A stretch of 36,698 bases of DNA from Candidatus Heimdallarchaeota archaeon (lineage in GTDB: Archaea; Asgardarchaeota; Heimdallarchaeia; Hodarchaeales; Hodarchaeaceae), in contig JBHLSH010000036.1 in assembly GCA_048881705.1 (NCBI GenBank), forward strand, positions 1 through 36,698, read 5' to 3'. This document shows, piece after piece, positions 11,623 through 27,817 of the stretch. Position 1 is the stretch's first letter. Every line of letters starts with the position of its first letter. Below the pieces are notes generated by a model. That model saw nothing but the letters and a program-made list of their open reading frames with translations, made no database searches and had not been told where the DNA came from. Made by a program: the position numbers and the translations under genes.

Positions 11623-12273
11623 ATGTCAGAAACCAGTTGGATACCGCTGGATCATAACCTTTTGCTCCTGATACTATCTAGCCTGTTAATCGTTGGTGTC
11701 CTAGTAGCAGCGGTCCGAAATTCCTGGAAACCGAAGGAGATTATAGTCGTTCTAGTGCCAGCCGCTTTACTAGGCGGAATATTGCTGGGTGGGACGATGG
11801 GACTTACCCCGAATCTCCTATTAAGTGATCTGGGAACAGAAATACCAGAGGAACCAATAGATTACGTCATACATGTTGAAGCGCAGCTCAAACCGTGGAC
11901 CTTTAACATAACACGCATTGAAAATGCCACTACCGCGGAATCCATTCCAGTAAACGTATCTAAGTACATAACTATTCCTGAAGGGGTGGGTTATCCAGAG
12001 ACGGTAGCATATGCCAATATCGACCTTAAGGTTGGTACCGTATACCAAATTATAATCAAGGCACTTGACACAGATCACGGTTTTGAAATCGTCCCAACCT
12101 TCCAAGATTACTTTGGAAATCCTGTCACATTGAATCTACCACAGCTTAAAGAGATCTCATTCTACGCAAAACCCACGGTTGATCAAATCGGCAACCATCT
12201 CTTCTCTTGCAACTTTTACTGTGGACTTGGGCATGGGCAGATGAACGGATTTGTTACAGTGACAACAGCATAA
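11623..12273 (+). CDS. Membrane-anchored CuA cupredoxin (cytochrome c oxidase subunit II-like)
   Basis: Two N-terminal TM helices; DTDHGF and CNFYCGLGHGQM give the full H...C-x3-C-x3-H-x2-M CuA ligand set. Confidence 0.88.
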   Translation: MSETSWIPLDHNLLLLILSSLLIVGVLVAAVRNSWKPKEIIVVLVPAALLGGILLGGTMGLTPNLLLSDLGTEIPEEPIDYVIHVEAQLKPWTFNITRIENATTAESIPVNVSKYITIPEGVGYPETVAYANIDLKVGTVYQIIIKALDTDHGFEIVPTFQDYFGNPVTLNLPQLKEISFYAKPTVDQIGNHLFSCNFYCGLGHGQMNGFVTVTTA

Positions 12274-12289
12274 TAAAGGTGAAAAATTT

Positions 12290-14539: not shown

Positions 14540-14552
14540 TCCCAAATTCCCC

Positions 14553-14573
14553 TTTTTTTCTTTTTTTTTATTT
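14553..14573 (+). terminator. Oligo-T archaeal-type terminator
   Basis: T7-C-T9-A-T3 starting 14 nt after the stop at 14539. Confidence 0.7.
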
Positions 14574-14761
14574 GTTGAATCCATTGGCTATACCAATAGC
14601 CCTTAAACTCTTCTTACCACACTAGATATAGTAAATCTTTTCTCTTTTCTTCCTGGACATAAAGAGAGGTTACTTGGAGAGGGGATTTGTTAGTAAAGTG
14701 AGGATCGGTTTTCGAAAAACGGATCGGATTAGCCACCAGAAGAATTTTCTTGTGAAAAAAA

Positions 14762-14781
14762 AAAAGAAACCAATTTATAAA
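14762..14781 (+). promoter_or_regulatory. Candidate BRE/TATA promoter for the blue copper gene
   Basis: TTTATAAA (14774-14781) preceded by a purine-rich tract, about 77 nt upstream of ATG 14858. Confidence 0.35.
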
Positions 14782-14857
14782 GAAAAAGAAGAAACGGACG
14801 CCGACTTCTACGACTGTAGATAGCAAAGAGTCTACCTATAAAAGGGATTGATATATT

Positions 14858-15430
14858 ATGAAAAAACAAGGAGTTATTTTATTGGCCTTATTTACGGGGA
14901 TAATGTTCTTATCTATAATCGTTCCCCTAAATCTCTCGGCTACAACAAATACCCCCACTCAAGGGACGACACTCACAGTTACGGCCCTTACTGGTACTCA
15001 GTATGATAAGAAGGCCATAGACGTACAGAAGAACACACAATACACAATTATATTCTGGAACAATGAATCAGGTGTATGGCATAATTTCATAGCGGCGGCA
15101 GACGAGCGGATAGTAACCTCAGCGACTGCATCTGACACCCCAAAGTCTGGAGATCTGGTACTCGGACCTCTCCCCACTGAAGCCAATGCAGGCAACTCTG
15201 GCGGGACAAATGCAAGTGTATGGACTGGAAATTTCACAACTCCAGATAAGGACACCTATGTCATGTTTTACTGCTCGTTTTCAGGACATTTCGACGCAGG
15301 GATGTGGGGTTATTTCAAAGTGGGTAGCCCGACCGGGAATCCTCCTGGTACTCCGGCGCCAGGGTTCGAGCTGGTGATTGGTCTTTTGATCATTGCTAGT
15401 TTAGCCCTAGTTCAGAAAAAGAAAAGGTAA
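14858..15430 (+). CDS. Secreted type-1 blue copper protein with PGF-CTERM anchor
   Basis: Signal peptide; WHNF His plus FYCSFSGHFDAGM (C-x4-H-x4-M, rusticyanin/sulfocyanin-like loop); C-terminal APGF, TM helix and QKKKR. Confidence 0.88.
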   Translation: MKKQGVILLALFTGIMFLSIIVPLNLSATTNTPTQGTTLTVTALTGTQYDKKAIDVQKNTQYTIIFWNNESGVWHNFIAAADERIVTSATASDTPKSGDLVLGPLPTEANAGNSGGTNASVWTGNFTTPDKDTYVMFYCSFSGHFDAGMWGYFKVGSPTGNPPGTPAPGFELVIGLLIIASLALVQKKKR

Positions 15431-16001: not shown

Positions 16002-16913
16002 TTGCTCGAGCTCCATCCAACTTCCCAAAAAAATGTTTACTCCGTTCCATTCCTTGCTGATTCTCTCGATTCATTCGTTTTATGGTTCTTCACAGGTAGT
16101 AGATGTAATTTGAGCTGCCATCACTGCTATGTTGAATCAAGTCCTACCGCAAATCGATATCCCTATCTCAGATATACTACTTTTAAACGAGCATTGAACA
16201 ACACGTTATCTCGTAATTATTCCCGTCTGGAAATCTATTTCACTGGAGGAGAACCATTTATTAATCCAGAAATCGATTCCATGCTCGCTGAATCCCTGTT
16301 ACATGCTGATACAACCGTTTTGACAAATGCAACCCGAATTACAAAAAAAAGGGCCGCTTACCTCCGAAAAATCCAAGATGCTGGAAAGTTCGAGCTTACG
16401 TTTAGAGTTTCATTTGATGGTCCTGACGAACAATCGAACGATTTTATTAGAGGCAAAAACTCCTATATAAAGGCAAACGCTGGTCTCAAGAACTTAGTCG
16501 AAGTTGGGTTTAATCCTATCATAACTGCAATGAGAAGCTGGTCCAGTGAGGAATTAGAGCAGGTTAAAGCAGATTTTCAGGCAATGCTAGAAGAAAGTGG
16601 GATCCCTCACACAAAACAACGTCTAAAGATTCTACCACCATTGCGGATAGGTCGAGAAGCCGACCGGAGTAGACCCTATACCCAGCAAGAACTATTCACA
16701 AAGGAATGCTTTGTAGATTACGATTATTCGAACTTACAATGTAGTACATGCCGTATGGTGACAGAAAAGGGAATTTGGGTATGCCCGATCTTAATCAATG
16801 AAGATGGGGCTCGTATGGGAGATACTCTCGAAGAAGCAGCAACCGCTTTTCCAATGAGATATATGGCCTGTTGGACTTGTAGAATGGAAGGCATGAACTG
16901 TACTAATTCTTAA
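16002..16913 (+). CDS. Radical SAM protein, ArsS (TIGR04167)-like, with Cys-rich C-terminus
   Basis: CNLSCHHC, TGGEP and VSFDG motifs. C-terminal C..CxxC..C..CWTC-x6-C. The N-terminal GSRCNLSCHHCYVESSP resembles ArsS as I recall it. The subfamily is less certain than the superfamily. Confidence 0.85.
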   Translation: MLELHPTSQKNVYSVPFLADSLDSFVLWFFTGSRCNLSCHHCYVESSPTANRYPYLRYTTFKRALNNTLSRNYSRLEIYFTGGEPFINPEIDSMLAESLLHADTTVLTNATRITKKRAAYLRKIQDAGKFELTFRVSFDGPDEQSNDFIRGKNSYIKANAGLKNLVEVGFNPIITAMRSWSSEELEQVKADFQAMLEESGIPHTKQRLKILPPLRIGREADRSRPYTQQELFTKECFVDYDYSNLQCSTCRMVTEKGIWVCPILINEDGARMGDTLEEAATAFPMRYMACWTCRMEGMNCTNS

Positions 16914-16996
16914 TGGGTCTTATTTACGATAAAAGCACCGCAATGCTTTTAATTGAAAAAAAAGGGTAGTGGAGCCTAAAAAAAGGACAACGTGAT

Positions 16997-18547
16997 TTGA
17001 TGCTTTCTCCTTCCTCAAATTCTGAATCCTCGGATGTAATATGCCATGATTGTTTCAGTACTAAAAGTCGTACTGGCCTAATATCTGTCATGCTGGGCAT
17101 GACAGTTTGTTTCAGCACTCTCTGGCGATTTCCCTATCAAGTAGCTTCGTTTGGGGGCGCTGCTTATCTAGGAATCTATTTTATCCTAGCTGCACTTTTC
17201 GTATACCCTGCTCTAACTGCGGAATGGGGTTTAGGTCGATTTACCGGAAGAGGTCCTGATGGGGCCTATAATCAAGTGAGATTTCCAGGTGGAAAAGCCG
17301 TTTCCGTTCTTTTATTCTTGATAGTATTGGCAGTTGGAAGTTATTTTGTCGTTTGGATCGGATGGATCCTTCGTTATGCATTCTCTGCCATATTTGATAG
17401 CCGGTTAACTGCCGTAACAACGCAGAGTACTGAATATTTTGAAACCACCGTTGCGGCGGATCCCGTGTCACAATTTGCTTTCACCGCTATAGTCGTTCTT
17501 GCAATCGCAATTCCTTTACTTCGCGGAACCCGAAGAATTGAGCAGATCAGTAAACTAGTGGTTCCGATTTTCTATGGCAGCGTTAGTGTCCTGACAATTC
17601 TTGTTTTTCTTCAACCTGGAGTATTCTCCAATGTTATTGGATACCTTACAACAATTAACATCACGGAGCAAGTTACATCTTATACCTTCGTCGCTGCATT
17701 GGGACAAGCATTTTTCTCTTTATGTCTTGGTGGATCTTATATGGTTTTGTATGCCAGTTATATGCAAAGAAAGTCTACCCATGATATTCCTGTTAACGCA
17801 GGCTTAACCCTTATCGGAAATACTGTGGCGAGCTTAATTTCTGTCCTATTGGTTTTCGGGGTTATTTCTCTCGCAGGTATTGGGATGAGTAACGCAGAAA
17901 CTTTCGGGCCTGGATTATTCTTTGGAGTCATACCGGAGGTTTTCAAAACTCTAGGAATTGGGGTGTCGGGACTCGGTATGTCGATTTTCTTTCTGATGTT
18001 CTTCTTGGCGGCCTATCTACCTCTAACTGCAATATTTGAAGTAACAATTGTCTATCTAGTTGATAATATTGGAATATCCAGAAAACAAGCTTATCTGGTC
18101 ATTGGATTCCTAACCATGCTACTTGCTATACCGTCAATGTTATCTCCGTTGGACGGCGGCTTTTTGTATAATTTAGATCTTTTTGTCGGTGCTACTGGTT
18201 CGGTAATTGGTAGTATCATCGCAATAATAGCGTTTGGTTGGTTTGTACCTAAAAAGATGGCGCTAAAAGAAGTCAACACAGCTTCCCGATTCAAATTAGG
18301 GAATAAATGGCATTTCTGGGTGAAATACGTCCAACCGTTTTTCCTCGTTTATGTCATCTTATATGCCTTCTCTGACATAATTGTTGGCACTTTCGGTCTG
18401 AATGCTATTCCTGGAGACGCTTACGTATTTTATTCCCTGATTTCATCCATGGCTCCTTGGCTCGCTTTAGTATTAACCATTTTTATCTTTCTTTTGGTCT
18501 TATATGACCATAGAAGAACTCGAAGGGTAGGAACATCTGCGGCATAA
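16997..18547 (+). CDS. Divergent neurotransmitter:sodium symporter (NSS/SNF, LeuT fold)
   Basis: LWRFPY...GGAAY, AEWGLGR, ALGQAFFSL...YASY and GPGLFFGVIP motifs; 12 or more TM helices. Confidence 0.9.
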   Translation: MMLSPSSNSESSDVICHDCFSTKSRTGLISVMLGMTVCFSTLWRFPYQVASFGGAAYLGIYFILAALFVYPALTAEWGLGRFTGRGPDGAYNQVRFPGGKAVSVLLFLIVLAVGSYFVVWIGWILRYAFSAIFDSRLTAVTTQSTEYFETTVAADPVSQFAFTAIVVLAIAIPLLRGTRRIEQISKLVVPIFYGSVSVLTILVFLQPGVFSNVIGYLTTINITEQVTSYTFVAALGQAFFSLCLGGSYMVLYASYMQRKSTHDIPVNAGLTLIGNTVASLISVLLVFGVISLAGIGMSNAETFGPGLFFGVIPEVFKTLGIGVSGLGMSIFFLMFFLAAYLPLTAIFEVTIVYLVDNIGISRKQAYLVIGFLTMLLAIPSMLSPLDGGFLYNLDLFVGATGSVIGSIIAIIAFGWFVPKKMALKEVNTASRFKLGNKWHFWVKYVQPFFLVYVILYAFSDIIVGTFGLNAIPGDAYVFYSLISSMAPWLALVLTIFIFLLVLYDHRRTRRVGTSAA

Positions 18548-18560
18548 CCCCTAACATCCC

Positions 18561-18581
18561 TTTTCTCTTCTTTTTTTCCTT
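18561..18581 (+). terminator. Pyrimidine/oligo-T terminator after the NSS gene
   Basis: TTTTCTCTTCTTTTTTTCCTT starting 14 nt after the stop at 18547. Confidence 0.55.
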
Positions 18582-18705
18582 ATCCTTGCCCATTTAACGT
18601 CGTGTCCCGCATATTACAACAGGATTATTCTTTCTAGATCGCTGTGTACTTGGCTTTCGATATTCATCGCAACCTTTTTTAAATCCCCAAAAGGCGGATT
18701 TGCAT

Positions 18706-19179
18706 ATGCCCATTATTAAAACTACATTGGCAGAGAATTACTCCATCATATTTCCTCTAAGGTTAATTACCGGATTAATCTGGTTTGGAACCGCTATTCG
18801 AAGAATATTAATCCCAAATTTCTTCGATCGAATCGCTGATATGGCGGCAGGTGAACCCCTTCTTCCACCTGCTTTAATGGACTGGGCTGTTTCCAATTGG
18901 GTCCTGATATTCGCTGTTGTACTCAGTTTGGAGATTATTTCATCCCTAAGTCTCCTTACAGGCACCTTTGCGCGCGCTGGTGCCGCACTAGCTACATTCA
19001 ACGGATTTGCCATCGGATTGGCTGGAATTGGTCTTGGAATTCTGGATTTGATAATTCCATGGACAGCAGCACTTATGTCATTGGTCCTCCTCCTCTTCAG
19101 CCATCCCGGAATGTATAGAGGGATTGACGAGCAGCTTAGTGCCAGGGATTTGCCAGAATGGGTAAAAGTATTAATGTAG
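18706..19179 (+). CDS. DoxX-family membrane protein
   Basis: LRLITGLIWFG, LEIISSLSLLTGTFARAGA and C-terminal YRGIDE. ATG 18706 preferred over TTG 18700. Confidence 0.75.
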   Translation: MPIIKTTLAENYSIIFPLRLITGLIWFGTAIRRILIPNFFDRIADMAAGEPLLPPALMDWAVSNWVLIFAVVLSLEIISSLSLLTGTFARAGAALATFNGFAIGLAGIGLGILDLIIPWTAALMSLVLLLFSHPGMYRGIDEQLSARDLPEWVKVLM

Positions 19180-19220
19180 GATTAAGTAAGAAAACAATTG
19201 AAGATCAAAGGTGAATATTG

Positions 19221-19724
19221 ATGGCCATGCAAGCAATTCGTGAGATAAACGCTCAACAAGTATCAGGTACGTACGTCGCACTTATCCGATTATCGTTAGG
19301 GGCTGCTTTTCTGACCACATGGGTAAGTAACATCATGAAGGGAGTATTTACGCCCACAGGTTACGTTGGGACTATTAGTTTCTTCTTGGATGATCCTATG
19401 CATGTTGTTACTCCTCTTGATACAATTGTGAGGGATTTTGTTTTTCCTAATGCGGCTCTTATGGCCCCGGGGTGGATGTTTCTGGAGCTATTTATTTCTG
19501 TTACAGTTCTTTTCGGGGTGTTTACGCGTCCAGGAGCTCTGGTAGGTGCCTTTGTGTCGTCAGTTTTGCTTTTTACTACTTTAGGAGTAGATTGGGTTTG
19601 GACCTACGTTTTGATGATCGTGGGTTTTGTGATCTGTGCTATAACAGGAGCTGGCAGGTGGTACGGCATTGATTATTGGCTCAGAGACAAACTCCCTTCT
19701 GGTATCGTGAAGTTCTTGGTCTAA
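19221..19724 (+). CDS. DoxX/DoxD-like membrane protein
   Basis: LIRLSLGAAFL, LELFISVTVLFGVFTRPGA and TGAGRWYGIDYW. SD AGGTGA favours ATG 19221. Confidence 0.82.
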   Translation: MAMQAIREINAQQVSGTYVALIRLSLGAAFLTTWVSNIMKGVFTPTGYVGTISFFLDDPMHVVTPLDTIVRDFVFPNAALMAPGWMFLELFISVTVLFGVFTRPGALVGAFVSSVLLFTTLGVDWVWTYVLMIVGFVICAITGAGRWYGIDYWLRDKLPSGIVKFLV

Positions 19725-19730
19725 CGGCGG

Positions 19731-19756
19731 CTAGAAACGCTTTCCAAAGCGTCTAG
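19731..19756. terminator. Hairpin between convergent genes
   Basis: CTAG-AA-ACGCTTT-CC-AAAGCGT-CTAG inverted repeat in the 52-nt gap between stops at 19724 (+) and 19777 (-). Confidence 0.5.
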
Positions 19757-19776
19757 TGTTTGCACAGTTATTCTGT

Positions 19777-21132
19777 TTAAGCACCCTGTGGCTTTGACAG
19801 GGTTCGATAAGTTCTTTTCAATTTCTCGCGGTAAACATAGATTATACCAGCATAAAAGGGGAGAAATTCGATTATCCGAACAATGTTCGATTCATACCAA
19901 ACACCAATGGCATCAAAACTAATATATACGTGGTATGATAGAATTATTGTTCCCGTTAGGAGGATCCAGGAATAATCCAACGGTTCCACTAACAACACGA
20001 AAGGAAATATCCAGAACAGATACCAAGGATGAAATACAGGTTGCAAGAGAAGAAATGAAGCCAATACAAAAAATCCATTCACTGGATTTAAGATGTGAGG
20101 GCTATGTTCTGATTTTAAGATTATTAGGAGATAAATACTTAAGAAAATGACTCCGACTACAATTTTGGCGCCAAAAAAGGTTCCTGTTGATTCGACCAAG
20201 ACCCACATAAGGCTTGCATTGAAGTACCACCTATCGGCATAAATGAGCAGACCAGAAATGATGGAAGGAGTCAATATGATTGACAAACTGTATAAAAAAA
20301 GTCCAGAAAGCACGATTATTCTTCCTTTTCTCCCTAGTTGACGCCAATATACGCCAATCAGGAAGATTGGATAATATTTGAGCAGGGTCGCCATAAGTAG
20401 GGCCGCTCCTCCCAAAGATTGGTTCTCACGACTTAAGGCAAATATAGCGGCCATCACTAGGAAAACTACCAGGGGGTCGAAATGAGACCCATTTCCGGTC
20501 TCTAGATGCAAAAGCGGATTCCACGCGTACAGAATGATTCGCCAAGAAGGTTTATCAAAGACTGAAAGAAGGTGCGCCATGAGTGGGATAGTTGCTAAGT
20601 ACATAAATGAAAAGAAAACTCGAAAGACTACAGGAGATGCAACCAGAGAGGCCATGTAGAGAACAGCAAATACCAAAAGTGCAAACGGGGGATACGGAGA
20701 GGTAACATCCGGATTATTCACTAGAAATTGAAATGGAGGCTGTAAACTGGATGGGAAATCCGAGGGTGGGATAGAATAGGGATTAATTCCGTTCACAAAG
20801 GCCATTCCCTCCATAAAAAAACGATAGATATCGTCAGATAGCGTAACATCAGTAAATAGGAGACGGATCTGGATTATAGATGCCACAATCATAAGGATTG
20901 CGGTGAAATACCTTTTTTTGACCAAAAAATCTTGATACCGATGGATTACTACAGCTATCACGCAATAAACACTGAAGGGAACGAAAAATCCGATTATAAA
21001 ATTCCAGGATGAGCGCTTCAGGGCAGTGGCCGAGATCAATATTTCAAGCGCCAAAACAAGGATGATCCCCATCACAACAAGTCCAAAGTATGAAATACGG
21101 TCTTGATGCCTTAGGAGCCTTGAGGTTTTCAA
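19777..21132 (-). CDS. GT-C polyprenyl-phosphate-sugar-dependent glycosyltransferase (DUF2029/GT87-like)
   Basis: LSDDIYRF...GINPY, PYPP, YAWNPL..LE...SHFD, LLKYYP and VFHPWY motifs; multi-TM. Start uncertain (TTG 21132). Confidence 0.82.
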   Translation of the reverse strand: MKTSRLLRHQDRISYFGLVVMGIILVLALEILISATALKRSSWNFIIGFFVPFSVYCVIAVVIHRYQDFLVKKRYFTAILMIVASIIQIRLLFTDVTLSDDIYRFFMEGMAFVNGINPYSIPPSDFPSSLQPPFQFLVNNPDVTSPYPPFALLVFAVLYMASLVASPVVFRVFFSFMYLATIPLMAHLLSVFDKPSWRIILYAWNPLLHLETGNGSHFDPLVVFLVMAAIFALSRENQSLGGAALLMATLLKYYPIFLIGVYWRQLGRKGRIIVLSGLFLYSLSIILTPSIISGLLIYADRWYFNASLMWVLVESTGTFFGAKIVVGVIFLSIYLLIILKSEHSPHILNPVNGFFVLASFLLLQPVFHPWYLFWIFPFVLLVEPLDYSWILLTGTIILSYHVYISFDAIGVWYESNIVRIIEFLPFYAGIIYVYREKLKRTYRTLSKPQGA

Positions 21133-21141
21133 TGGATTTAC

Positions 21142-22560
21142 CTACTTACGTGTTACGTCCCAGGATCGGTATGGATGTCCGGTCCAGTACCTAAGAGTGG
21201 CATACAGGGCAGCAAAAGACTCAACCGCTCCTCCAATTGGTGTTACAAGTAGTAATTTGATGTATTCCCATGTTTTCTGTCTTTTGGTAAGCCCGAGAGA
21301 CCTAATATTTTTCGAAGATCCATTGATGATGCCAAAAAGCCAAAATAAGGTTCCAGGTAGTAAGATTAGCCGTGAAACAGTCACTTGAAATGTACGAAGC
21401 ATCGGTGATATAAGAGATGCATCCATCGCTAAAAAAGGAAAAGCTGACGGTACTAATACAAACAAAAGCGTGAGAATGATAAACAAGGCAGCAAAAAAAC
21501 TTATCCCATGCGCAATAATCCTGAAGCGTAACCGAGACAAGAACCGAATCCGTGCAAACCAATTTAATCTAAGAAATTCCTCATTTTTCCTTATGAGAGT
21601 CAAGGCCTGCCAAGCACCTGTAACCCATCGCATACGAGCATTAAAGGACTCTCGGATACTAAATGGCGGTTGTTCAGTCACTAGTCCTCCATGCCATCCG
21701 AACACCTCCCGACCAAATCTACTATATGCTCTCATACCGAAATATAAGTCTTCTGCTAGTAAGGGATCATCGTTAGGGAGCCTTCCTGAATCCCACCCGA
21801 TCGAAGATATTAGTTCCGCATCCACAAGTAAATTCGATCCATGAAGGTGAAGAGGAGGAGGATTAGTCATTACTTGTGCGCAGTGATAGCAATTAAATGG
21901 CCGTGATGCCTCCATCTGACGACTTATAAGATTTGCATCAAAATATTTGTGCGAATAGACTATGGGGCCTTCAAAAATCTTCTTCTCGGGCGATACAAGT
22001 ATCGAGTGTATAATACGTCGGAAATCATCTTCCGATATGGTGGATTCTGCATCAAAATAAAAAACGAACGCGCGCTTTCCACCTGGCTTTGTCGCTCGGT
22101 ATTCTGAGGAATAATGTAGACTTCGGGCCTTATATAGCGTATCCTTAGGAGTTTGATAGTCAGGAGGGACCGCGATAACTTCAACAGAAATGTCAATTCC
22201 CTGATTTTGTAAATACTGGTTAAAGTGGACAACCTCATCCTGCAAATCAGTTACTATTAGCAGCTCAATGTTGTTTCTGAATAAAGGATTCTGCGCTATC
22301 TTATAAATGGAATCGATCCCTCTTGTGACCACTTCAACTTCATTACCGCGAGTTGTAATTTGAAATTTGAAGATAGGTAGTTCTTGTTCAGCTTTCTCTA
22401 ATAATTCACAGATCTGGTGATCTGTTAGAACCGTAGGATTTTGATATTGTTTTCGGTTTCTAATGTACGCGGGTATTAATTCCAGAGCATAATACAAAGT
22501 ACAGATGAGGAAAATAACAGCTCCTAGCGTCCAAATTCCAAAGGCGACAGTAAATTCCAT
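21142..22560 (-). CDS. Membrane GT2 glycosyltransferase, egghead/BRE-3-like
   Basis: FQITTRG, IVTD, VPPDYQT..LYKARSLHY, FDAES, HGSNLLV, LAEDLYFG and EQPPFS...ARMRWVTG; N-terminal TM and C-terminal TMs. Confidence 0.85.
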   Translation of the reverse strand: MEFTVAFGIWTLGAVIFLICTLYYALELIPAYIRNRKQYQNPTVLTDHQICELLEKAEQELPIFKFQITTRGNEVEVVTRGIDSIYKIAQNPLFRNNIELLIVTDLQDEVVHFNQYLQNQGIDISVEVIAVPPDYQTPKDTLYKARSLHYSSEYRATKPGGKRAFVFYFDAESTISEDDFRRIIHSILVSPEKKIFEGPIVYSHKYFDANLISRQMEASRPFNCYHCAQVMTNPPPLHLHGSNLLVDAELISSIGWDSGRLPNDDPLLAEDLYFGMRAYSRFGREVFGWHGGLVTEQPPFSIRESFNARMRWVTGAWQALTLIRKNEEFLRLNWFARIRFLSRLRFRIIAHGISFFAALFIILTLLFVLVPSAFPFLAMDASLISPMLRTFQVTVSRLILLPGTLFWLFGIINGSSKNIRSLGLTKRQKTWEYIKLLLVTPIGGAVESFAALYATLRYWTGHPYRSWDVTRK

Positions 22561-22570
22561 TGTTTTTCCT

Positions 22571-23362
22571 CTAACTCATTGTTCCCGAGTCCTGTGAGGA
22601 TTCCCAAATCGATCCATCCAAAGTTTTGAGCAACGAATACGTATGCACCGCTATCTTTTTTTCTGGTTTTTTAGGGGTATTAAAGGATCGTGCATAAACC
22701 TCAGAGAAAATGTTTCTTAAATCTGAAAACGTATCAATGTCAAAAACCGTTGGCAATATACACACTTTATGGTAGGGGAATAGCTCTAATAGGTTCCCCA
22801 ACTCATTGTGTATGGAGTTCTTTTGAAAAATCTCACTGATCTCACCAGGGCATGGTTGGTTTGTTCCGAATAGGTAGAAACCTCCATTTTGAGACGGACC
22901 CAATACAATCCCTTTTGCATTCGACATTAAGAACTCCATTCCCCTTAATATATAGGAAGAAGATAGGTGGGGAGTGTCAGAGCCAATAATAATTGTTGAT
23001 TTCATTTTTAAATCCCTAAAAGCCCGATTGAGGGCAATAGAAAATCGTTGGCCCATCGTATCCCCTACTTGGGGTACCAAATTCGCCTTCTCCATCAAGC
23101 TTGGGTTTTCATCCTCCATAATCGCTATTATGATCTTTTTTATCATATTTCGCGCAGAATCGTTTTCAGGGAAATAATTGATAATTGGTGTGAAAATGGT
23201 GTGTTTCATCACTTCATTTAAAATCAGGAGGGTGTCTTTTATCATCGCGGTTGTTAAATCAACTTGAAAGTTCTCCGGAAATTGAGGATGCGCCAACCGC
23301 GTTTTCACTGGTACCTGGGTCGGAACTTTTGTAAACAGTATGATTCCCTGCTTAATTGACAT
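22571..23362 (-). CDS. DUF2064 / TIGR04282-like transferase (CofC-like GT-A fold)
   Basis: ILFTKVP...VKTRL, QVGDTMGQR, IIIGSDTP, VLGPSQNGGFYLFG and FDIDTFSDL. ATG 23362 overlaps the upstream stop. Confidence 0.88.
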   Translation of the reverse strand: MSIKQGIILFTKVPTQVPVKTRLAHPQFPENFQVDLTTAMIKDTLLILNEVMKHTIFTPIINYFPENDSARNMIKKIIIAIMEDENPSLMEKANLVPQVGDTMGQRFSIALNRAFRDLKMKSTIIIGSDTPHLSSSYILRGMEFLMSNAKGIVLGPSQNGGFYLFGTNQPCPGEISEIFQKNSIHNELGNLLELFPYHKVCILPTVFDIDTFSDLRNIFSEVYARSFNTPKKPEKKIAVHTYSLLKTLDGSIWESSQDSGTMS

Positions 23363-24092
23363 TTTTAATCCCAGGTTTCCAAAATAAAAGTACACGAAGG
23401 AGCGTCAGAATCATTATCGACCCGGCTTTAAACGCGGTATTAAAGTTTCCAGAGATTTTACTTTTACCTGAAGTACGTGGATGCCAATTAACAGGAACTT
23501 CCAGATACGGAACTCCCCCCATTTTTAGTATCTTTGTACTCATTTCTATGGTCCAACCGTAGTTCACTGATGCCATATTTAGTTCCGAAAGGAGATCCCA
23601 ATTTATAACACGAAGCGGGCCGAGATCGGTAAGGTGCTGTTTCCAAATCATTGACAAAAACTTCGCGAACAACCGATTTGCAACGCGAGCTATAATGGCA
23701 AGATTGTTACGAGACTGTGGATCTATCATACGGCTCCCTTGGCAATAAGGTGTTCTGTTCTTTAAAACAGGAAGGGCCACTTTGTCAATATCGGCCACAT
23801 TACTTTGTCCATCGCCATCAAAGAAACAAACATATTTAGGGGGGTTTGGTTGTCTTGCAAGATATTTCAAACCAGCCAAACACGCGGATCCATACCCAGG
23901 TCTATTTTCCGTTATTACTTGGACCCCTGCATTTCGGGCAACTTTTGTGGTTTGATCTTCGGAGCCGTTATCCACGACGATCACTCGTTTAACTCTTTTC
24001 AAAAGGCGGGGAAGAAGGAATGCGAGGGCGGTTTCTTCATTCTTTGCTGGAATAAGTACAATCATATCAGGAGGATTTTCCACATTTAACAT
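23352..24092 (-). CDS. GT2 polyprenol-phosphate glycosyltransferase (Dpm1-like)
   Basis: LIPAKNEE, VVDNGSED, GYGSACLAG, FFDGDG, TDLGPLR, YGWTIEM and GKSKISG. Confidence 0.92.
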   Translation of the reverse strand: MLNVENPPDMIVLIPAKNEETALAFLLPRLLKRVKRVIVVDNGSEDQTTKVARNAGVQVITENRPGYGSACLAGLKYLARQPNPPKYVCFFDGDGQSNVADIDKVALPVLKNRTPYCQGSRMIDPQSRNNLAIIARVANRLFAKFLSMIWKQHLTDLGPLRVINWDLLSELNMASVNYGWTIEMSTKILKMGGVPYLEVPVNWHPRTSGKSKISGNFNTAFKAGSIMILTLLRVLLFWKPGIKNVN

Positions 24093-24255
24093 GGGAATTC
24101 GATGGAATTTAAAATAACTCTGATTGGTGTCGAAATTCTAGAGAACAGGATCGTGAACAACATATCCTTGACCCAAACTGGTCAGAAATCAATCGGTTAT
24201 TCAATATCAAAGTCAAAACGTAGTTTCAAATGAGTAGAACTAATCTCTAATATAT

Positions 24256-25326
24256 CTAAAGTATTAAGGGGGTGGAAACTGGAGTTTCTTCTCCAAGGAC
24301 ATTATACATCAAATATGATGCAATCCAATTACCAAACATCATGAATATTAACGCTATAACTGAGGAAATCCCAAGTTCTGGTATTCCACCCAGAATATGC
24401 CCGAAGTTACATCCCGAAGCCAACATTGCTCCAATCCCTAATAGAAGGCCTCCACCAAAAAACCGAATTAAGTCACGTGTGTTTGGAGTTTTTATTTTGA
24501 ACTCGTTAATCTGAAGGGATGACAAGCTTGCTCCGATAATAAGACCGAGAATCATAATTCCTGCCCATCCCAAAAGGGGAGAGGTGATTCCAAGAATGCC
24601 TGAAACAACTGAGAAAAGCTCCCCAATCCCGTCCGTCGTGGAAAGCCCAAATGGACGGCCAGCTAATGTAGAAAAAAGCCGTGCTAATGTACCCAAAACC
24701 CCAAGCACAAGCCCAGACATCAAAGGAGACCATCCTTCACGAAAATGCGGTAGCTTTGGGGGAGTTCTCCTGTACTTGTAAACCAATACTCCTAGCATAC
24801 TTACGGCTCCGATCGTCCATATCGGCCTAGGTAGTATCTGTTCAAAAGAAGGAGTTTGACCTTGTATTGTCCAAAGGGTCGCATTTTGCACTTCAACAAA
24901 TGCAGAGTTGAAGGGTTCCAAGGCAAAAATAGCAATCCCGATACCAAAACCAAGAAAAGCGAGCAGCGACTTAATTGATCCTTCTCCTACCCTGTAACAC
25001 ACTCCTCCAGCACATCCACCCGCAAAAACTGTTCCAAATCCAAATAAAAGACTTCCTATAGGAATAAGAATAGAAGAGAACATAATTGGATTTGAACGAA
25101 TGTTGAAACCTGGAAGTATTTCGGTGATTGATAATAACTGCAATAACTGGTAACCAATCAACTCTACCATAACTGCAATAACCAGTACTAATGCAACCTC
25201 GGGATTTCTGATTAATAATAAATTTCTGAATGCAGTATTTGAACATACACGTCCTCTTTGTAACACCAGACCAATTGCGATTCCCAAGATCATAGCACTA
25301 AGAAAATCTAGTGGGGTCATAGCCAC
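24256..25326 (-). CDS. YeeE/YedE family sulfur-compound (thiosulfate-type) transporter
   Basis: LQRGRVCS, FAGGCAGG...RVGEG and LASGCNFG, the three conserved Cys motifs of the family. Confidence 0.92.
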   Translation of the reverse strand: MAMTPLDFLSAMILGIAIGLVLQRGRVCSNTAFRNLLLIRNPEVALVLVIAVMVELIGYQLLQLLSITEILPGFNIRSNPIMFSSILIPIGSLLFGFGTVFAGGCAGGVCYRVGEGSIKSLLAFLGFGIGIAIFALEPFNSAFVEVQNATLWTIQGQTPSFEQILPRPIWTIGAVSMLGVLVYKYRRTPPKLPHFREGWSPLMSGLVLGVLGTLARLFSTLAGRPFGLSTTDGIGELFSVVSGILGITSPLLGWAGIMILGLIIGASLSSLQINEFKIKTPNTRDLIRFFGGGLLLGIGAMLASGCNFGHILGGIPELGISSVIALIFMMFGNWIASYLMYNVLGEETPVSTPLIL

Positions 25327-25503
25327 TTGCTTAATCCTCCATTTCTCTTGACAGAAAGAATTTAGACCTAGTTAGTAATAAAATATCTTCCTATTAGTTT
25401 CATTTAATTTCTTTGATGTTTTTTTCGTTTGCATCTAAGGCCATTATTGACTTTTATGAAAAAATATCAATAAACATTCTCCATTTTGGTTTAAGCCATA
25501 ACC

Positions 25504-26373
25504 ATGCTCAAAATCAAAACTAGTAGTACAATAGGAAAACACTTAGTCAGTTTTCTTGGTGCCTGTTTTGGTTTCCTAGTGATTATCTTTGCTGTTTGGG
25601 ATCTTCAAATTTCTGTGGCCCTTGTTGATAGCGAAGCAGCGTGGGCGAGGTTCATCGCAGAGTATGGAGAGACCCCAGGGAACATTATCATTATAATAGC
25701 ACTTTTCGCTGTTTTCATCGCAGCAAAAGAAAAATGGGGAACGAAAAGTCCTATAATCATTGCAATTGTCATTGGGGGCCTTGTTTGGCAGATTTTCGCC
25801 TTGATCAACGCGATATTTGGAGGAATTACCTTCCAACTCATTCCAATCATCCTTGCATTTGTTTTAGCAACATTAGTCGTGATTCGTAAGGGAAATTTCA
25901 CCATATCGAATGAATTCCAAACGTTTGCTGTTTTTACCCTAATTTTGGCTGTATTGAACCCGCTTCTATTTGTACAAGTAATTAAAATTTTGTGGGGGCG
26001 TATTCGCTTTCGAGATCTAGCTTTAGATTATTCAAATTATACCCCCTGGTTTCTTCCACGGGGACCGACTGGGCATGCTTCGTTTCCCTCGGGTCACGCC
26101 GCCATGGGATGGATGCTACTCCCGATACTATCTGTGCCTCATTTGAAGAAGAATAAAGCTATATATTACCTAACAACGGTCATTATCTTAACATGGGGAG
26201 TAGTTGTTGCACTTGGCCGTGTTGTTGTAGGAGCACACTATGCTTCAGACGTTTTATTTTCAACGGGAGTTGCTTGGTTAATATTTATATTGCTAGTTAA
26301 ATACTATCGGGGAAAGGCACTATTCCCAAACAACAATCCACAATTGGCAAAGGATGTAACGAATGTTCAATAA
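25504..26373 (+). CDS. PAP2-family membrane lipid-phosphate phosphatase
   Basis: KILWGRIRF, SFPSGH and GRVVVGAHYASD catalytic motifs. Confidence 0.9.
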   Translation: MLKIKTSSTIGKHLVSFLGACFGFLVIIFAVWDLQISVALVDSEAAWARFIAEYGETPGNIIIIIALFAVFIAAKEKWGTKSPIIIAIVIGGLVWQIFALINAIFGGITFQLIPIILAFVLATLVVIRKGNFTISNEFQTFAVFTLILAVLNPLLFVQVIKILWGRIRFRDLALDYSNYTPWFLPRGPTGHASFPSGHAAMGWMLLPILSVPHLKKNKAIYYLTTVIILTWGVVVALGRVVVGAHYASDVLFSTGVAWLIFILLVKYYRGKALFPNNNPQLAKDVTNVQ

Positions 26374-26385
26374 AACACCGAACAT

Positions 26386-27219
26386 CTACCCAAAGAATTC
26401 AGATAGGCCATATTGACGGGGGAGGTATTTGGAGGCATCAGAGAAACCCTGAACATCTAGATTTTCTCTCGTTAGGCGCCTCCGAAGCGAAATAACATCA
26501 TTTATAGCATATCCTGAAAATCGATTGTTGATCAGGATGAAAATCCTTTGATGAACCTCGTAAAGTGGTTTGATTCTGCTAACCAGGCCACATATTTCAG
26601 TATCTTTCACTAAAAATGTGCGGCCGAGCTGTGAATCAGGAATGGTTTTTCTATCTCCCAAAATTCGAACGTAATAGACAGGAGCCTTTTTGGAAAAAAA
26701 GTCAGGAGGAATTTTTATCTTTGTTGTGTCTGTAAGCACGAGGGAATAATCAGTTATTAAGTGTTTTAATTCAGGAATGAGCCAAGATGAATTTCTTAGC
26801 TCTAAAATTAGAATTCTTGAAAAATGCTTGGAACATTCATCTAGTATCCGAACCAGATACTCTAAGCGATCAGAATTAAAACGAAATGATGGAGGAAATT
26901 GAAGGAGAATTCCCTTTAATTTTGGTTCCAAGCCCTTTAAAGGTAGAAAAAATTCTTCGATCAGATCCGACTTTGAGGAAAGATTACTGGAATGGGTCAC
27001 ATCCTTTATCATTTTGGCAGTGAACTGAAAATCTTCAGGAGTAGATTTATACCATCGTTTCACCAGGGAATGCGAAGGAATACTGTAGAAAGTGGTATTA
27101 ATCTCGTTTAATTTCGAATGACGTGCGTAGTATTTCAGCTCGTTCTTTGCGTCATTAGGATAAAATCGCCCACGCCAGAAGGGGTAATACCATCCAGTTG
27201 TTCCCAAATATACCGTCAT
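26386..27219 (-). CDS. DUF72 family protein
   Basis: YLGTTGWYY..W.GRFYP, EINTTFY, FTAK...THS, LLQFPPSF and LELRNSSW. True start ATG 27219; the track's 5' extension overlaps the upstream gene. Confidence 0.92.
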   Translation of the reverse strand: MTVYLGTTGWYYPFWRGRFYPNDAKNELKYYARHSKLNEINTTFYSIPSHSLVKRWYKSTPEDFQFTAKMIKDVTHSSNLSSKSDLIEEFFLPLKGLEPKLKGILLQFPPSFRFNSDRLEYLVRILDECSKHFSRILILELRNSSWLIPELKHLITDYSLVLTDTTKIKIPPDFFSKKAPVYYVRILGDRKTIPDSQLGRTFLVKDTEICGLVSRIKPLYEVHQRIFILINNRFSGYAINDVISLRRRLTRENLDVQGFSDASKYLPRQYGLSEFFG

Positions 27220-27268
27220 TGTTCTATTCCAGCGCGATTGTTTAATTAATCTTTGTAAACGGGGATAT

Positions 27269-27817
27269 TTAGTACGATATACTGTGAAAATATTCATGTA
27301 TGGCTGATAAAGTGAGATGGTCGGTAATATCGTTTCCATAGTAGGCCTTTACCACAACGCCCTGATCGATTAGAAAACTCGCAGGAATTAATGTTCGAAT
27401 TCCATCCATGATTCCAAGGTGAAATCCCTTTTTTATTGCCTTTAGAAACTTCCCCCAACGAAAATAGCCCCGTATATAGCCCCACTTGGATGCATATACC
27501 CCGTAAAGCCTATAAACCTCATGATTAGGATCCGAAATTACGGGAAACGGGATATTTTCTTGTCTTTTTTCGACATACTTGGATATAAGCTCCTTGGGAG
27601 ATTGAAAAAAGGCTAATATCTGTAGATTGTATTTGGAGTGTAATTTAGGGTATTCCGTAATTAATTCAGAGAAACGGAGATTACAAAAGGGGCATGAAGC
27701 GTATCTGAAGAAGCTAAGATAAAGAGCATGCGCACGAAAGTCTTCTAGAGCAATATGATTACCATATATATCCTGGGTTTGAAATTCGATGGCATTTTGC
27801 CCTTCTATTACCCTCAT
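27269..27817 (-). CDS. AhpC/TSA peroxiredoxin-like (thioredoxin-fold) protein
   Basis: LSFFRYASCPFCNL (CxxC), PFPVISDP...YRLYGV and IPASFLID. Confidence 0.88.
   Translation of the reverse strand: MRVIEGQNAIEFQTQDIYGNHIALEDFRAHALYLSFFRYASCPFCNLRFSELITEYPKLHSKYNLQILAFFQSPKELISKYVEKRQENIPFPVISDPNHEVYRLYGVYASKWGYIRGYFRWGKFLKAIKKGFHLGIMDGIRTLIPASFLIDQGVVVKAYYGNDITDHLTLSAIHEYFHSISY

What the first reader, a model, noticed from the sequence alone, without database searches (positions are those of the whole stretch)
16002..26373. Candidate uncharacterised biosynthetic cluster: ArsS-like radical SAM enzyme and transporter joined to a four-enzyme glycolipid assembly line
Seen: rSAM, NSS and two DoxX genes on the plus strand converge on a tightly packed minus-strand operon (GT2 Dpm1-like, DUF2064, egghead-like GT2, GT-C; one overlap and 9-10 nt gaps), followed by YeeE/YedE and PAP2. 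Established: DUF2064/TIGR04282 was defined as a radical SAM/selenodomain-associated transferase and co-occurs with ArsS, the radical SAM enzyme of arsenosugar synthesis; GT2 plus GT-C is the classic polyprenyl-phosphate-sugar relay; PAP2 enzymes dephosphorylate lipid carriers. From memory, bacterial ArsS neighbourhoods also carry this GT2, a GT-C and a symporter. No arsM methyltransferase or TIGR04283 gene is in this window. Inference: an archaeal pathway that imports an unusual small molecule (As-, Se- or S-containing or otherwise), ribosylates or modifies it by radical SAM chemistry, and builds it into a glycolipid or surface glycan. The product is unknown.
Basis: partly seen in the sequence, partly recalled or inferred. 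Interest (0 to 1): 0.82.

Follow-up and report, generated by a model that had tools for sequence, protein, structure and literature searches.

The report
Asgard lipid-linked sugar cassette with radical SAM
An Asgard archaeon carries a conserved, uncharacterised operon that probably loads an unusual sugar onto a lipid carrier and attaches it outside the membrane, here with an added radical SAM enzyme that is not ArsS; the product is unknown.

Summary
All ten genes are present as described. The title is wrong on one point: the radical SAM (rSAM) enzyme is not ArsS-like. It scores 52 bits against a 300-bit cut-off, and only the rSAM core aligns with a true ArsS. It belongs to an unnamed family with five invariant extra cysteines.

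The linkage is real. The rSAM lies beside the same GT2/DUF2064/GT2_3/GT-C genes in at least five further Asgard lineages, in three different gene orders.

The stable unit is a five-gene operon: YeeE, Dpm1-like GT2, DUF2064, large membrane GT2 and GT-C, faced by DoxX-like genes. It occurs without any rSAM in four same-genus genomes and in a second, diverged archaeal group, so the rSAM is an add-on. PAP2 is a flank gene. The NSS transporter recurs in only one other lineage.

The closest known analogue is the mycobacterial methylthioxylose (MTX) cap pathway. All 20 actinomycete loci show the same GT2→DUF2064 pair, usually with an epimerase and often with MTA phosphorylase.

In Heimdall contigs the rSAM sits beside an MTA/5'-dA-type deaminase and an MTA-phosphorylase-like gene. 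This suggests it makes a 5'-substituted adenosine.

In bacteria the family is fused to or adjacent to ArsM-type methyltransferases. No such gene sits in the Asgard clusters, so arsenic remains only a minority reading. selD was not found.

Earlier agents of this scan reported similar cassettes on other DNA.

The parts
16002..16913 (+). Radical SAM enzyme of an unnamed family. It has a CX3CX2C motif plus five invariant C-terminal cysteines (C247, C261, C290, C293, C300). It is an optional add-on to the cassette.
   Evidence: PF04055 57 bits. Best NCBIfam hit is NF049973 at 104 bits against 380; TIGR04167 scores 52 against 300. Alignment A1. AF2 model pLDDT 87; nearest folds are BlsE, anSME, SkfB, DesII, viperin and MoaA. 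Orthologues at 57-66% identity lie beside the same transferases.
16997..18547 (+). NSS/SNF-family sodium symporter, 83 nt downstream of the rSAM. It is a lineage-variable accessory gene.
   Evidence: PF00209 88 bits. Present in G001. A 61%-identical copy lies about 8 kb from the rSAM in Heimdall contig L024. Absent from L018, L019, L021 and L153.
18700..19179 (+). 159-aa polytopic membrane protein, weakly DoxX-like.
   Evidence: No Pfam hit. 25% identity over 73 aa to the neighbouring DoxX, E 1e-4. Conserved at 51-55% in L137, L139 and L151.
19218..19724 (+). DoxX/DoxD-family membrane protein, convergent with the operon. It is a conserved companion of the cassette.
   Evidence: PF07681 26.4 bits. 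Present beside the cassette in L018, L019, L021, L024, L137, L139 and L151.
19777..21132 (-). GT-C fold membrane glycosyltransferase (MptA_B/GT87-like) and last gene of the operon. It is the presumed extracytoplasmic transferase that uses a polyprenyl-phosphate sugar.
   Evidence: PF09594 22.9 bits, just under the cut-off. Orthologues carry PF26314 MptA_B_family. About 10 hydrophobic segments. Invariant SDD..YR loop motif in alignment A3. Fused to a GT2 domain in a distant relative.
21142..22560 (-). Large membrane GT2 (Glyco_trans_2_3, 'egghead-like'). It is the presumed cytoplasmic-face transferase that builds the lipid or glycan acceptor.
   Evidence: PF13632 53.8 bits. One N-terminal TM segment plus C-terminal TM segments. 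Invariant D170, E270-D271 and R309xR311-W312 in alignment A2. Homologues occur in Asgard, a second archaeal group and Actinobacteria.
22571..23395 (-). DUF2064 (CofC/MobA-like nucleotidyltransferase fold), the only copy in this genome. It is the presumed sugar-1-phosphate activating step.
   Evidence: PF09837 55 bits. TIGR04282 81 bits against 134. Single copy. 3CGX is the only PDB relative. It forms its own clade, support 100, apart from the ArsS-linked clade.
23352..24092 (-). Dpm1/AglJ/PpgS-like GT2, the presumed polyprenyl-phosphate sugar synthase. It forms a conserved GT2->DUF2064 gene pair.
   Evidence: PF00535 58 bits; AglJ 81 bits; PpgS 63 bits; TIGR04283 only 32 against 182. 32% identity, E 1e-25, to the GT2 of the actinomycete cluster. 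The pair is present in 20 of 20 actinomycete loci.
24256..25326 (-). YeeE/TsuA-type sulphur-anion transporter and first gene of the operon.
   Evidence: PF04143 204 bits. TsuA models score 192 and 121 bits, both below cut-off. Three cysteines (C28, C105, C306) are conserved in all 8 Asgard orthologues, and two of them in the second archaeal group. A Sulf_transp gene also lies upstream of the module in L158 and L166.
25504..26373 (+). PAP2 lipid-phosphate phosphatase, divergent from the operon. It is a flank gene, not a conserved member.
   Evidence: PF01569 66 bits. Found again only in G001 and L018, where wider synteny is kept.

Best explanation
This is an archaeal envelope-glycosylation cassette of the lipid-linked sugar relay type, with a radical SAM tailoring enzyme added.

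Shown:
- The stable unit is a five-gene operon: a YeeE-type transporter, a Dpm1-like GT2, DUF2064, a large membrane GT2 and a GT-C. It is faced by DoxX-like genes.
- An rSAM of an unnamed cysteine-tailed family has joined it here and in a minority of Asgard lineages.

Inferred mechanism:
1. The rSAM makes a 5'-substituted 5'-deoxyadenosine, the same reaction class as ArsS, HpnH and MqnE.
2. A deaminase and a phosphorylase release a 5-substituted ribose-1-phosphate. These are encoded beside the rSAM in Heimdall contigs. In this genome an MTAP-like gene lies on another contig.
3. DUF2064 activates the sugar phosphate as a nucleotide sugar.
4. The Dpm1-like GT2 puts it on polyprenyl phosphate.
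5. After flipping, the GT-C transfers it to a glycolipid or glycan started by the large membrane GT2.

Where the rSAM is absent, the cassette would use an ordinary 5'-substituted adenosine such as MTA, as mycobacteria do for the methylthioxylose cap. The roles of YeeE and DoxX (thiosulfate-type sulphur handling) are conserved but unexplained.
For: Cassette and linkage:
- The cassette is conserved with the rSAM in three gene orders (L018/L019, L021, L153; G192 on one contig).
- It is conserved without the rSAM in G010, G006, G019, G016 and L151.
- It is also present in a second archaeal group at 25-40% identity.
- A GT-C::GT2 fusion exists in a distant relative.

Link to the MTX-type pathway:
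- The GT2->DUF2064 pair occurs in 20 of 20 actinomycete loci, with an epimerase in 18 and MTAP in 10.
- The window's GT2 and DUF2064 are homologous to those genes.
- MtxS (Rv0539) makes decaprenyl-P-MTX and MtxT (Rv0541c) transfers it (PMC8780516, citing Angala 2017).

Nucleoside chemistry:
- In L024 and L021 the rSAM is next to an MTA/5'-dA-deaminase-family amidohydrolase, and in L024 also an MTAP/MTI-phosphorylase-like gene.
- Elsewhere in Asgard, DUF2064 pairs with true ArsS, a 5'-dA-adding rSAM.
- The genome has an MTAP-like gene at 228 bits.
Against: - No enzyme here has been assayed, and the adenosyl-adding chemistry of this rSAM family is inferred from neighbours only.
- The deaminase and phosphorylase could simply recycle the 5'-dA by-product.
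- The window itself has no phosphorylase, deaminase or epimerase next to the cluster.
- The window's GT-C is not detectably related to the ~440-aa membrane protein of the actinomycete clusters (hhalign probability 0.3%).
- Foldseek's best matches (BlsE, DesII, anSME) are H-abstracting enzymes that modify sugars or peptides.
- The composition of the M. tuberculosis cluster beyond MtxS and MtxT (Rv0535, Rv0536, Rv0540) is from memory; the primary paper was not held.
- YeeE and DoxX have no role in the model.
Confidence: 0.5

Rival explanations
1. Organoarsenical route. The rSAM forms a C-As bond on (methyl)arsenite, as ArsS does, and the cassette builds an arsenosugar into a lipid or surface glycan.
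For: - In bacteria this rSAM family sits in operons with a true TIGR04282 (197 bits), an ArsM-like methyltransferase, a flavoprotein and a metallophosphoesterase.
- About 65 of 74 longer homologues are ArsM-type methyltransferase::rSAM fusions. They keep the LCCP, YGCG, NCVINL and CISGA cysteine motifs (assigning these as As-binding is from memory).
- The rSAM has an invariant C-terminal cysteine set.
- The genome has an ArsM above cut-off on contig C63.
Against: - No ArsM-type gene lies in any Asgard cluster.
- The methyltransferase beside the rSAM in L018 and L019 lacks all the ArsM cysteines.
- The Asgard clusters have neither the metallophosphoesterase nor the flavoprotein.
- The Asgard rSAMs are a separate clade, sister to a Nitrospinota group without ArsM context.
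- The cassette works without the rSAM in close relatives.
Confidence: 0.15
2. Sugar-tailoring rSAM. The rSAM abstracts hydrogen from a nucleotide sugar or lipid-linked sugar (dehydration, epimerisation, decarboxylation or ring contraction, as in BlsE, DesII, HpnJ or Cds). It does not add adenosyl.
For: - Best structural matches are BlsE, anSME, SkfB, EpeE and DesII.
- The extra cysteines fit an auxiliary cluster of SPASM/twitch type.
- The rSAM is optional, as a tailoring step would be.
Against: - It does not explain the deaminase and MTA-phosphorylase-like genes next to the rSAM in Heimdall contigs.
- It does not explain the family's fusion to ArsM-type domains in bacteria.
- It does not explain why DUF2064 pairs with ArsS elsewhere.
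Confidence: 0.2
3. Sulphur-containing product. YeeE imports thiosulfate, and its sulphur is built into the sugar or lipid (a thio- or sulfo-glycoconjugate), possibly with the rSAM as sulphur-inserting enzyme.
For: - YeeE is the first gene of the operon in all Asgard versions and keeps three conserved cysteines.
- A Sulf_transp gene also precedes the module in the second archaeal group.
- One distant relative has TusA, rhodanese and DsrE around GT2_3 and the GT-C::GT2 fusion.
- DoxX/DoxD relatives take part in thiosulfate oxidation.
Against: - The TusA/rhodanese context was seen once only; two other relatives lack it.
- The cluster has no SQD1/Agl3-like or sulfotransferase gene.
- L021 has the rSAM and the transferases but no YeeE.
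Confidence: 0.1
4. Accidental adjacency. The rSAM and NSS genes are unrelated neighbours of a glycosylation operon.
For: - Four same-genus genomes have the operon without the rSAM.
- The rSAM is on the opposite strand here, separated from the operon by three genes.
Against: - Adjacency is kept in at least five further lineages despite rearrangement, including co-directional GT2>GT-C>rSAM with 4- and 27-nt gaps in L021.
- All rSAM-positive Asgard genomes have DUF2064.
- A DUF2064 gene lies within 10 kb in 19 of the 81 bacterial loci and 4 of the 5 Asgard loci (23 of 86 in all).
Confidence: 0.05

Closest known systems
Methylthioxylose (MTX) capping pathway of Mycobacterium tuberculosis lipoarabinomannan (MtxS Rv0539, MtxT Rv0541c; from memory also Rv0535 MTA phosphorylase, Rv0536 epimerase and Rv0540)
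   Same: A Dpm1-like GT2 is followed directly by a DUF2064 gene, together with a polytopic membrane transferase, and the sugar derives from a 5'-substituted adenosine. The window's GT2 is 32% identical (E 1e-25) and its DUF2064 25% identical (E 2e-12) to the actinomycete genes.
   Different: - The membrane transferase is not detectably related.
- No epimerase or MTA phosphorylase lies in the window cluster.
- The archaeal cassette adds a large membrane GT2, YeeE, DoxX and, here, an rSAM.
ArsS / TIGR04282 / TIGR04283 'arsenosugar' set (Synechocystis ArsM-ArsS pathway)
   Same: An rSAM enzyme is genomically tied to a DUF2064 protein and a GT2. In bacteria, the family of this rSAM sits with TIGR04282, ArsM-like and phosphoesterase genes.
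   Different: - The rSAM shares only the core with ArsS (23% identity over residues 27-212) and has no DUF3641 domain.
- DUF2064 and GT2 are below the TIGR04282 and TIGR04283 cut-offs.
- True ArsS+TIGR04282 pairs exist in other Asgard families and look different.
Adenosyl-adding rSAM routes with nucleoside trimming: HpnH/HpnG (hopanoid side chain) and MqnE/deaminase/MqnB (futalosine)
   Same: An rSAM is followed by an adenosine-type deaminase and a PNP_UDP_1 phosphorylase/nucleosidase, as seen in L024 and L021.
   Different: There is no sequence membership: HpnH scores 54 bits, and only for a bacterial relative of the family. The acceptor of the adenosyl radical is unknown. This analogy rests on established knowledge of those pathways, not on a test here.
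ArsL (arsinothricin C-As bond-forming rSAM, RCCLKC-tail subfamily)
   Same: It is an rSAM partnered with an ArsM methyltransferase and has a cysteine-rich C-terminus that binds the substrate (bioRxiv 10.1101/2024.02.01.577332).
   Different: This family has no RCCLKC tail. Its tail is C-x-T-C-x6-C, preceded by two further invariant cysteines.

Membership tests
ArsS (TIGR04167) | Score at or above the curated cut-off of 300 bits | tested here: not met
   51.9 bits, aligned to model positions 9-149 only. A true Asgard ArsS scores 396 bits.
ArsS (TIGR04167) | C-terminal Cys/Sec-rich DUF3641 domain | tested here: not met
   No such Pfam hit at E 0.01. hhalign with a true ArsS aligns only residues 27-212.
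ArsS (TIGR04167) | Neighbourhood with arsM and TIGR04282/TIGR04283 | tested here: not met
   No arsM in the window; ArsM lies on contig C63. DUF2064 scores 81 against 134 and GT2 scores 32 against 182.
TIGR04282 (DUF2064 subfamily) | Score at or above 134 bits; same clade as the ArsS-linked proteins | tested here: not met
   81.2 bits. It falls in a separate clade with support 100.
DUF2064 (PF09837) | Pfam gathering score of 25.8 bits | tested here: met
   55.2 bits. It is the only copy in the genome.
Rv1681-family rSAM (NF049973) | Score at or above 380 bits | tested here: not met
   103.7 bits, core region only.
ArsL / RCCLKC-tail rSAM | C-terminal RCCLKC motif | tested here: not met
   The protein ends ...CWTCRMEGMNCTNS; motif definition from bioRxiv 10.1101/2024.02.01.577332.
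SPASM/twitch-type rSAM | CX3CX2C motif plus a C-terminal auxiliary-cluster cysteine set and the matching fold | tested here: inconclusive
   CX3CX2C and five invariant extra cysteines are present. Foldseek gives TM 0.57-0.62 to BlsE, anSME and SkfB. No SPASM Pfam hit was found.
MTX-type lipid-linked pentose relay | Dpm1-like GT2 directly followed by DUF2064 | tested here: met
   The window has GT2->DUF2064 with an overlap. The same pair is in 20 of 20 actinomycete loci, adjacent in 18.
MTX-type lipid-linked pentose relay | MtxT-like membrane transferase, MTA phosphorylase and epimerase in the cluster | tested here: not met
   The GT-C is unrelated to the actinomycete ~440-aa protein. There is no phosphorylase or epimerase in the window. 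An MTAP-like gene lies next to the rSAM only in L024.
YeeE/TsuA thiosulfate transporter | PF04143 fold and three relay cysteines; curated equivalog score | tested here: inconclusive
   PF04143 204 bits. Three conserved cysteines (mapping them to the solved YeeE is from memory). The NCBIfam TsuA models score 192 against 400 and 121 against 645.
GT-C (GT87/MptA_B) | Polytopic membrane protein with an acidic loop motif; Pfam score | tested here: inconclusive
   PF09594 22.9 bits against 25. Orthologues are listed with PF26314. There are about 10 TM segments and an invariant SDD motif.

The most novel reading that the evidence does not exclude
The Asgard rSAM, like its bacterial relatives that are fused to ArsM-type domains, forms a carbon-heteroatom bond (As, or S/Se) on a 5'-deoxyadenosyl unit. 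The cassette would then display the resulting arseno- or thio-pentose on the cell envelope through a polyprenyl-phosphate carrier. That would be a second, ArsS-independent route to organoarsenical sugars and the first enzymes for their lipid or glycan attachment.
Probability: 0.15. Interest if true: 0.85.

Novelty: new variant of a known kind. Interest (0 to 1): 0.6.

Why it matters
- Envelope glycoconjugates of Heimdall/Hodarchaeales-type Asgard archaea, the closest known relatives of eukaryotes, are essentially unknown. This cassette is a defined, testable candidate for one of them.
- In two lineages the cassette lies beside the terminal oxidase operon.
- The work gives DUF2064 a concrete, testable role as the sugar-1-phosphate activating step. 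That role would apply equally to the mycobacterial MTX cap and to the unknown later steps of arsenosugar synthesis.
- It defines an unnamed, widespread rSAM family. In bacteria that family is fused to ArsM-type methyltransferases and may be a second route to organoarsenicals.

Tried and rejected
- First neighbourhood clustering: the most frequent 'family' (c1) was the antisense ORF of the rSAM gene in high-GC genomes. It was discarded and gene calling was redone with a GC3 criterion.
- PDB sequence searches for GT2, GT2_3 and GT-C gave nothing. The rSAM matched only generic cores.
- Literature: no held paper mentions DUF2064, Rv0540, or Rv1681 together with radical SAM.
- The primary MTX paper (PMC5357196) and a review (PMC5831173) are not held.
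- Two Asgard oxygen-metabolism preprints do not mention these genes.
- Selenium reading: no selD above cut-off (51 against 125 bits).
- ArsL-type reading: the tail motif is absent.
- Sulphur-relay context: the TusA/rhodanese/DsrE context of P0171 was not seen again in P0183 or P0176.
- The metagenome scan returned only 19 loci, so the census of rSAM-plus against rSAM-minus cassettes stays small.
- The actinomycete ~440-aa membrane protein could not be linked to the window's GT-C.

Full report
OBSERVATION

Plus strand:
- rSAM, 16002-16913
- NSS symporter, 16997-18547
- a 159-aa membrane ORF, 18700-19179
- DoxX, 19218-19724

Minus strand, in order of transcription:
- YeeE, 25326-24256
- Dpm1-like GT2, 24092-23352
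- DUF2064, 23395-22571
- Glyco_trans_2_3, 22560-21142
- GT-C, 21132-19777

The gaps along the minus-strand operon are 163 nt, then a 44-nt overlap, then 10 nt and 9 nt. PAP2 (25504-26373) is divergent from YeeE. The second 'DoxX' is only weakly DoxX-like (E 1e-4).

ORGANISM

The genome is a 4-Mb Asgard MAG, 91% complete. Its nearest relative, G001, is fully syntenic at 79-97% protein identity and its submitter labelled it Thorarchaeota. Other genomes of the same GTDB genus are labelled Heimdall or Hodarchaeota.

THE RADICAL SAM ENZYME IS NOT ArsS

- It scores 51.9 bits on TIGR04167 (cut-off 300) and 103.7 bits on its best model, NF049973 (cut-off 380). Both matches cover the core only.
- A genuine Asgard ArsS scores 396 bits and sits next to a genuine TIGR04282 at 202 bits (L141). 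Profile comparison with that ArsS aligns only residues 27-212 at 23% identity.
- The protein belongs to a coherent unnamed family. The family has CX3CX2C plus five invariant C-terminal cysteines (alignment A1).
- The AF2 model has pLDDT 87. Its nearest folds are SPASM/twitch-type enzymes and nucleotide-acting rSAMs: BlsE, anSME, SkfB, DesII, viperin and MoaA.
- It lacks the RCCLKC tail of ArsL.

THE LINKAGE IS REAL

Orthologues at 57-66% identity lie beside the same transferases in other Asgard lineages, in three different arrangements.
- L018 and L019: methyltransferase > rSAM > DoxX, then convergent GT-C, GT2_3, DUF2064, GT2, YeeE. Both lie next to a heme-copper oxidase operon.
- L021: GT2 > GT-C > rSAM > amidohydrolase, co-directional with 4-, 27- and 80-nt gaps. 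GT2_3 and DUF2064 are divergent.
- L153: GT-C convergent directly with the rSAM.
- G192: rSAM and DUF2064 lie 2.5 kb apart on one contig.

Among 301 sampled Asgard genomes the family occurs in 5, and all 5 have DUF2064, which occurs in 46. These genomes are related, so this is not a formal statistic.

THE STABLE UNIT IS THE FIVE-GENE OPERON, AND THE rSAM IS OPTIONAL

- Four same-genus genomes (G010, G006, G019, G016) and the metagenome contig L151 carry the transferase genes of the operon at 36-58% identity (YeeE in G010, G006, G019 and L151; the DoxX-like genes in G010, G006 and L151). They have no rSAM of this family.
- The four genomes and G002 also have no ArsS.
- In the DUF2064 tree, the cassette proteins form one clade (support 100), separate from the ArsS-linked clade (support 99). 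Versions with and without the rSAM are intermixed.
- A second archaeal group at 25-40% identity has Sulf_transp, DUF2064, GT2_3, GT-C and GT2 in a slightly different order.
- One relative fuses GT-C and GT2 into a single protein and places them among TusA, rhodanese and DsrE genes.
- PAP2 recurs only where wider synteny is kept. The NSS gene recurs once, about 8 kb from the rSAM in L024.

WHAT THE rSAM FAMILY DOES ELSEWHERE

I fetched 80 further loci from named genomes, almost all bacterial, at 37-45% identity. Counts below are for 86 loci, including the window and five loci fetched earlier.
- A metallophosphoesterase lies directly downstream in 47 loci.
- A flavoprotein lies upstream in 32.
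- An ArsM-like methyltransferase recurs in 11, usually adjacent or within a few genes. It scores 381 bits on the arsinothricin ArsM model (NF040538, cut-off 500) and 195 bits on the arsenite methyltransferase model (NF008823, cut-off 263), so both are below cut-off.
- DUF2064 lies within 10 kb in 23, and the one example scored (L023) is a true TIGR04282 at 197 bits.

About 65 of 74 longer homologues are fusions of this rSAM with an ArsM-type methyltransferase domain. Others are fused to the flavoprotein or the phosphoesterase. The fused methyltransferase domain is 38% identical to the operon ArsM-like protein and 40% identical to this genome's own ArsM. It keeps cysteine motifs that I recall as the As(III) ligands of ArsM.

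In bacteria, therefore, the family most likely works on a methylated metalloid, in the position that ArsS holds in arsenosugar synthesis.

The Asgard proteins form a single clade (support 100). That clade is sister to a Nitrospinota group that has no ArsM context.

CLUES TO THE CHEMISTRY IN ASGARD

- In Heimdall contigs the rSAM is followed by an amidohydrolase of the MTA/SAH/5'-deoxyadenosine deaminase family. It scores 274-291 bits on the 5'-dA deaminase model, below cut-off.
- In L024 there is also an MTA/MTI-phosphorylase-like gene (255 bits against a cut-off of 275).
- From established knowledge, this deaminase-plus-phosphorylase pair is what trims the adenine from the products of adenosyl-adding rSAM enzymes (HpnH/HpnG; MqnE/deaminase/MqnB). 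It also converts MTA to methylthioribose-1-phosphate.
- The pair could equally be salvage of the 5'-dA by-product.
- The methyltransferase beside the rSAM in L018 and L019 is a short generic class I enzyme without any ArsM cysteine.

THE CLOSEST KNOWN SYSTEM

DUF2064 occurs in 123 of 301 sampled Actinomycetes genomes. This tally includes six unpublished genomes: G333, G316, G325, G308, G344 and G337. None of the loci analysed further comes from them.

In 20 of 20 fetched loci a Dpm1-like GT2 accompanies DUF2064.
- It is directly adjacent in 18. In the loci read gene by gene it is co-directional and in the same GT2->DUF2064 order as in the window.
- An NAD-epimerase is present in 18.
- A ~440-aa membrane protein is present in 15.
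- MTA phosphorylase is present in 10.

This matches the M. tuberculosis methylthioxylose cluster. There MtxS (Rv0539) makes decaprenyl-phospho-MTX and MtxT (Rv0541c) transfers it to lipoarabinomannan (PMC8780516, citing Angala et al. 2017). That Rv0535 is the MTA phosphorylase, Rv0536 the epimerase and Rv0540 the DUF2064 gene is from my memory only.

The window's GT2 and DUF2064 are homologous to the actinomycete genes (E 1e-25 and 2e-12). The GT-C is not related to the ~440-aa protein.

MODEL

See Best explanation for the steps.
- Shown: the gene set, its conservation, its modularity, and the contexts of each family.
- Inferred: adenosyl-adding chemistry for the rSAM, nucleotidyl transfer by DUF2064, the polyprenyl-phosphate carrier, and extracytoplasmic transfer by the GT-C.
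- Unexplained: the conserved YeeE, which keeps three conserved cysteines, and the DoxX pair. Both point to thiosulfate-type sulphur handling.
- Also noted: the cassette sits next to the terminal oxidase in two lineages. In the window a copper/Fe-S module occupies that place.

- arsM is present on contig C63 (300.6 bits against 263), with two near-cut-off paralogues.
- No TIGR04283 was found (best 54.6 bits against 182).
- No selD was found above cut-off.
- No ArsS was found.
- An MTAP-like gene lies on contig C96 (228 bits against 275).

EARLIER NOTES OF THIS SCAN

After I had reached the MTX analogy, a look-up showed that earlier agents had reported similar cassettes on other DNA and proposed the same analogue (e1-5416299, e1-1399138, e1-4089500). 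Another had reported the bacterial 'ArsS-swap' family (e1-3937350). These are unverified AI notes and are not independent evidence. I tested their main points here myself.

VERDICT

This is a real, conserved and uncharacterised cassette. It is a new variant of the lipid-linked sugar relay. The ArsS label should be dropped, and the arsenic reading kept as a minority possibility.

Noticed in passing
window 11623-15430: A CuA-like protein, a 749-aa polytopic Fe-S protein and a blue-copper protein lie between DUF1786 and the rSAM. In L018 the same position, also after DUF1786, holds a DOMON/COX3/COX2/COX1/COX4/SCO1 heme-copper oxidase operon. The oxidase island therefore seems to have been replaced here.
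   Followed up: partly
P0242-P0315: Dozens of bacterial proteins (Thermodesulfobacteriota, Brocadiaceae, Planctomycetes) fuse an ArsM-type methyltransferase domain to this rSAM family. A few are fused to a flavoprotein or a metallophosphoesterase instead. This may be an unstudied second route to organoarsenicals.
   Followed up: partly
L141:9801-11483 (G255) and L142: Other Asgard families carry a genuine ArsS (396 bits) directly next to a genuine TIGR04282 (202 bits), beside FabH-like and dehydratase genes.
   Followed up: partly
P0171 locus (no DNA held): In a distant archaeal relative, GT2_3 lies between TusA plus a 587-aa rhodanese and an 839-aa Fe-S flavoprotein. A single GT-C::GT2 fusion protein follows, with DsrE nearby.
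   Followed up: partly
L032, L036, L045, L074, L101: In Thermoanaerobaculia and Acidobacteriota, the bacterial rSAM/phosphoesterase operon sits beside a type III polyketide synthase and, in L032, L074 and L101, an AMP-dependent ligase. This hints at a lipid-like acceptor.
   Followed up: no
window 26386-27339; L018; L149:14735-15583: A DUF72 gene recurs next to the cassette in the window, in L018 and beside a distant GT2_3 homologue.
   Followed up: no
G000:C63:18321-19046: This genome has an arsenite methyltransferase above the curated cut-off (300.6 bits against 263), plus two near-cut-off paralogues on contigs C35 and C31.
   Followed up: no
window 22571-23395: The DUF2064 ORF as listed starts at a GTG (23395). 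An ATG eleven codons downstream (23362) precedes the start of the family alignment, which begins at residue 18, and cuts the overlap with GT2 from 44 to 11 nt.
   Followed up: partly
G001 versus G010, G016, G019: The closest MAG is labelled Thorarchaeota by its submitter, while other genomes of the same GTDB genus are labelled Heimdallarchaeota or Hodarchaeota. Cassette proteins are only 40-58% identical within this 'genus'.
   Followed up: no
L149 and L150: In a further archaeal group, the GT2_3 homologue overlaps a ~1085-aa protein with no Pfam match. Several methyltransferases and an Rdx-family gene lie nearby, and L149 also has a B12-binding rSAM.
   Followed up: no
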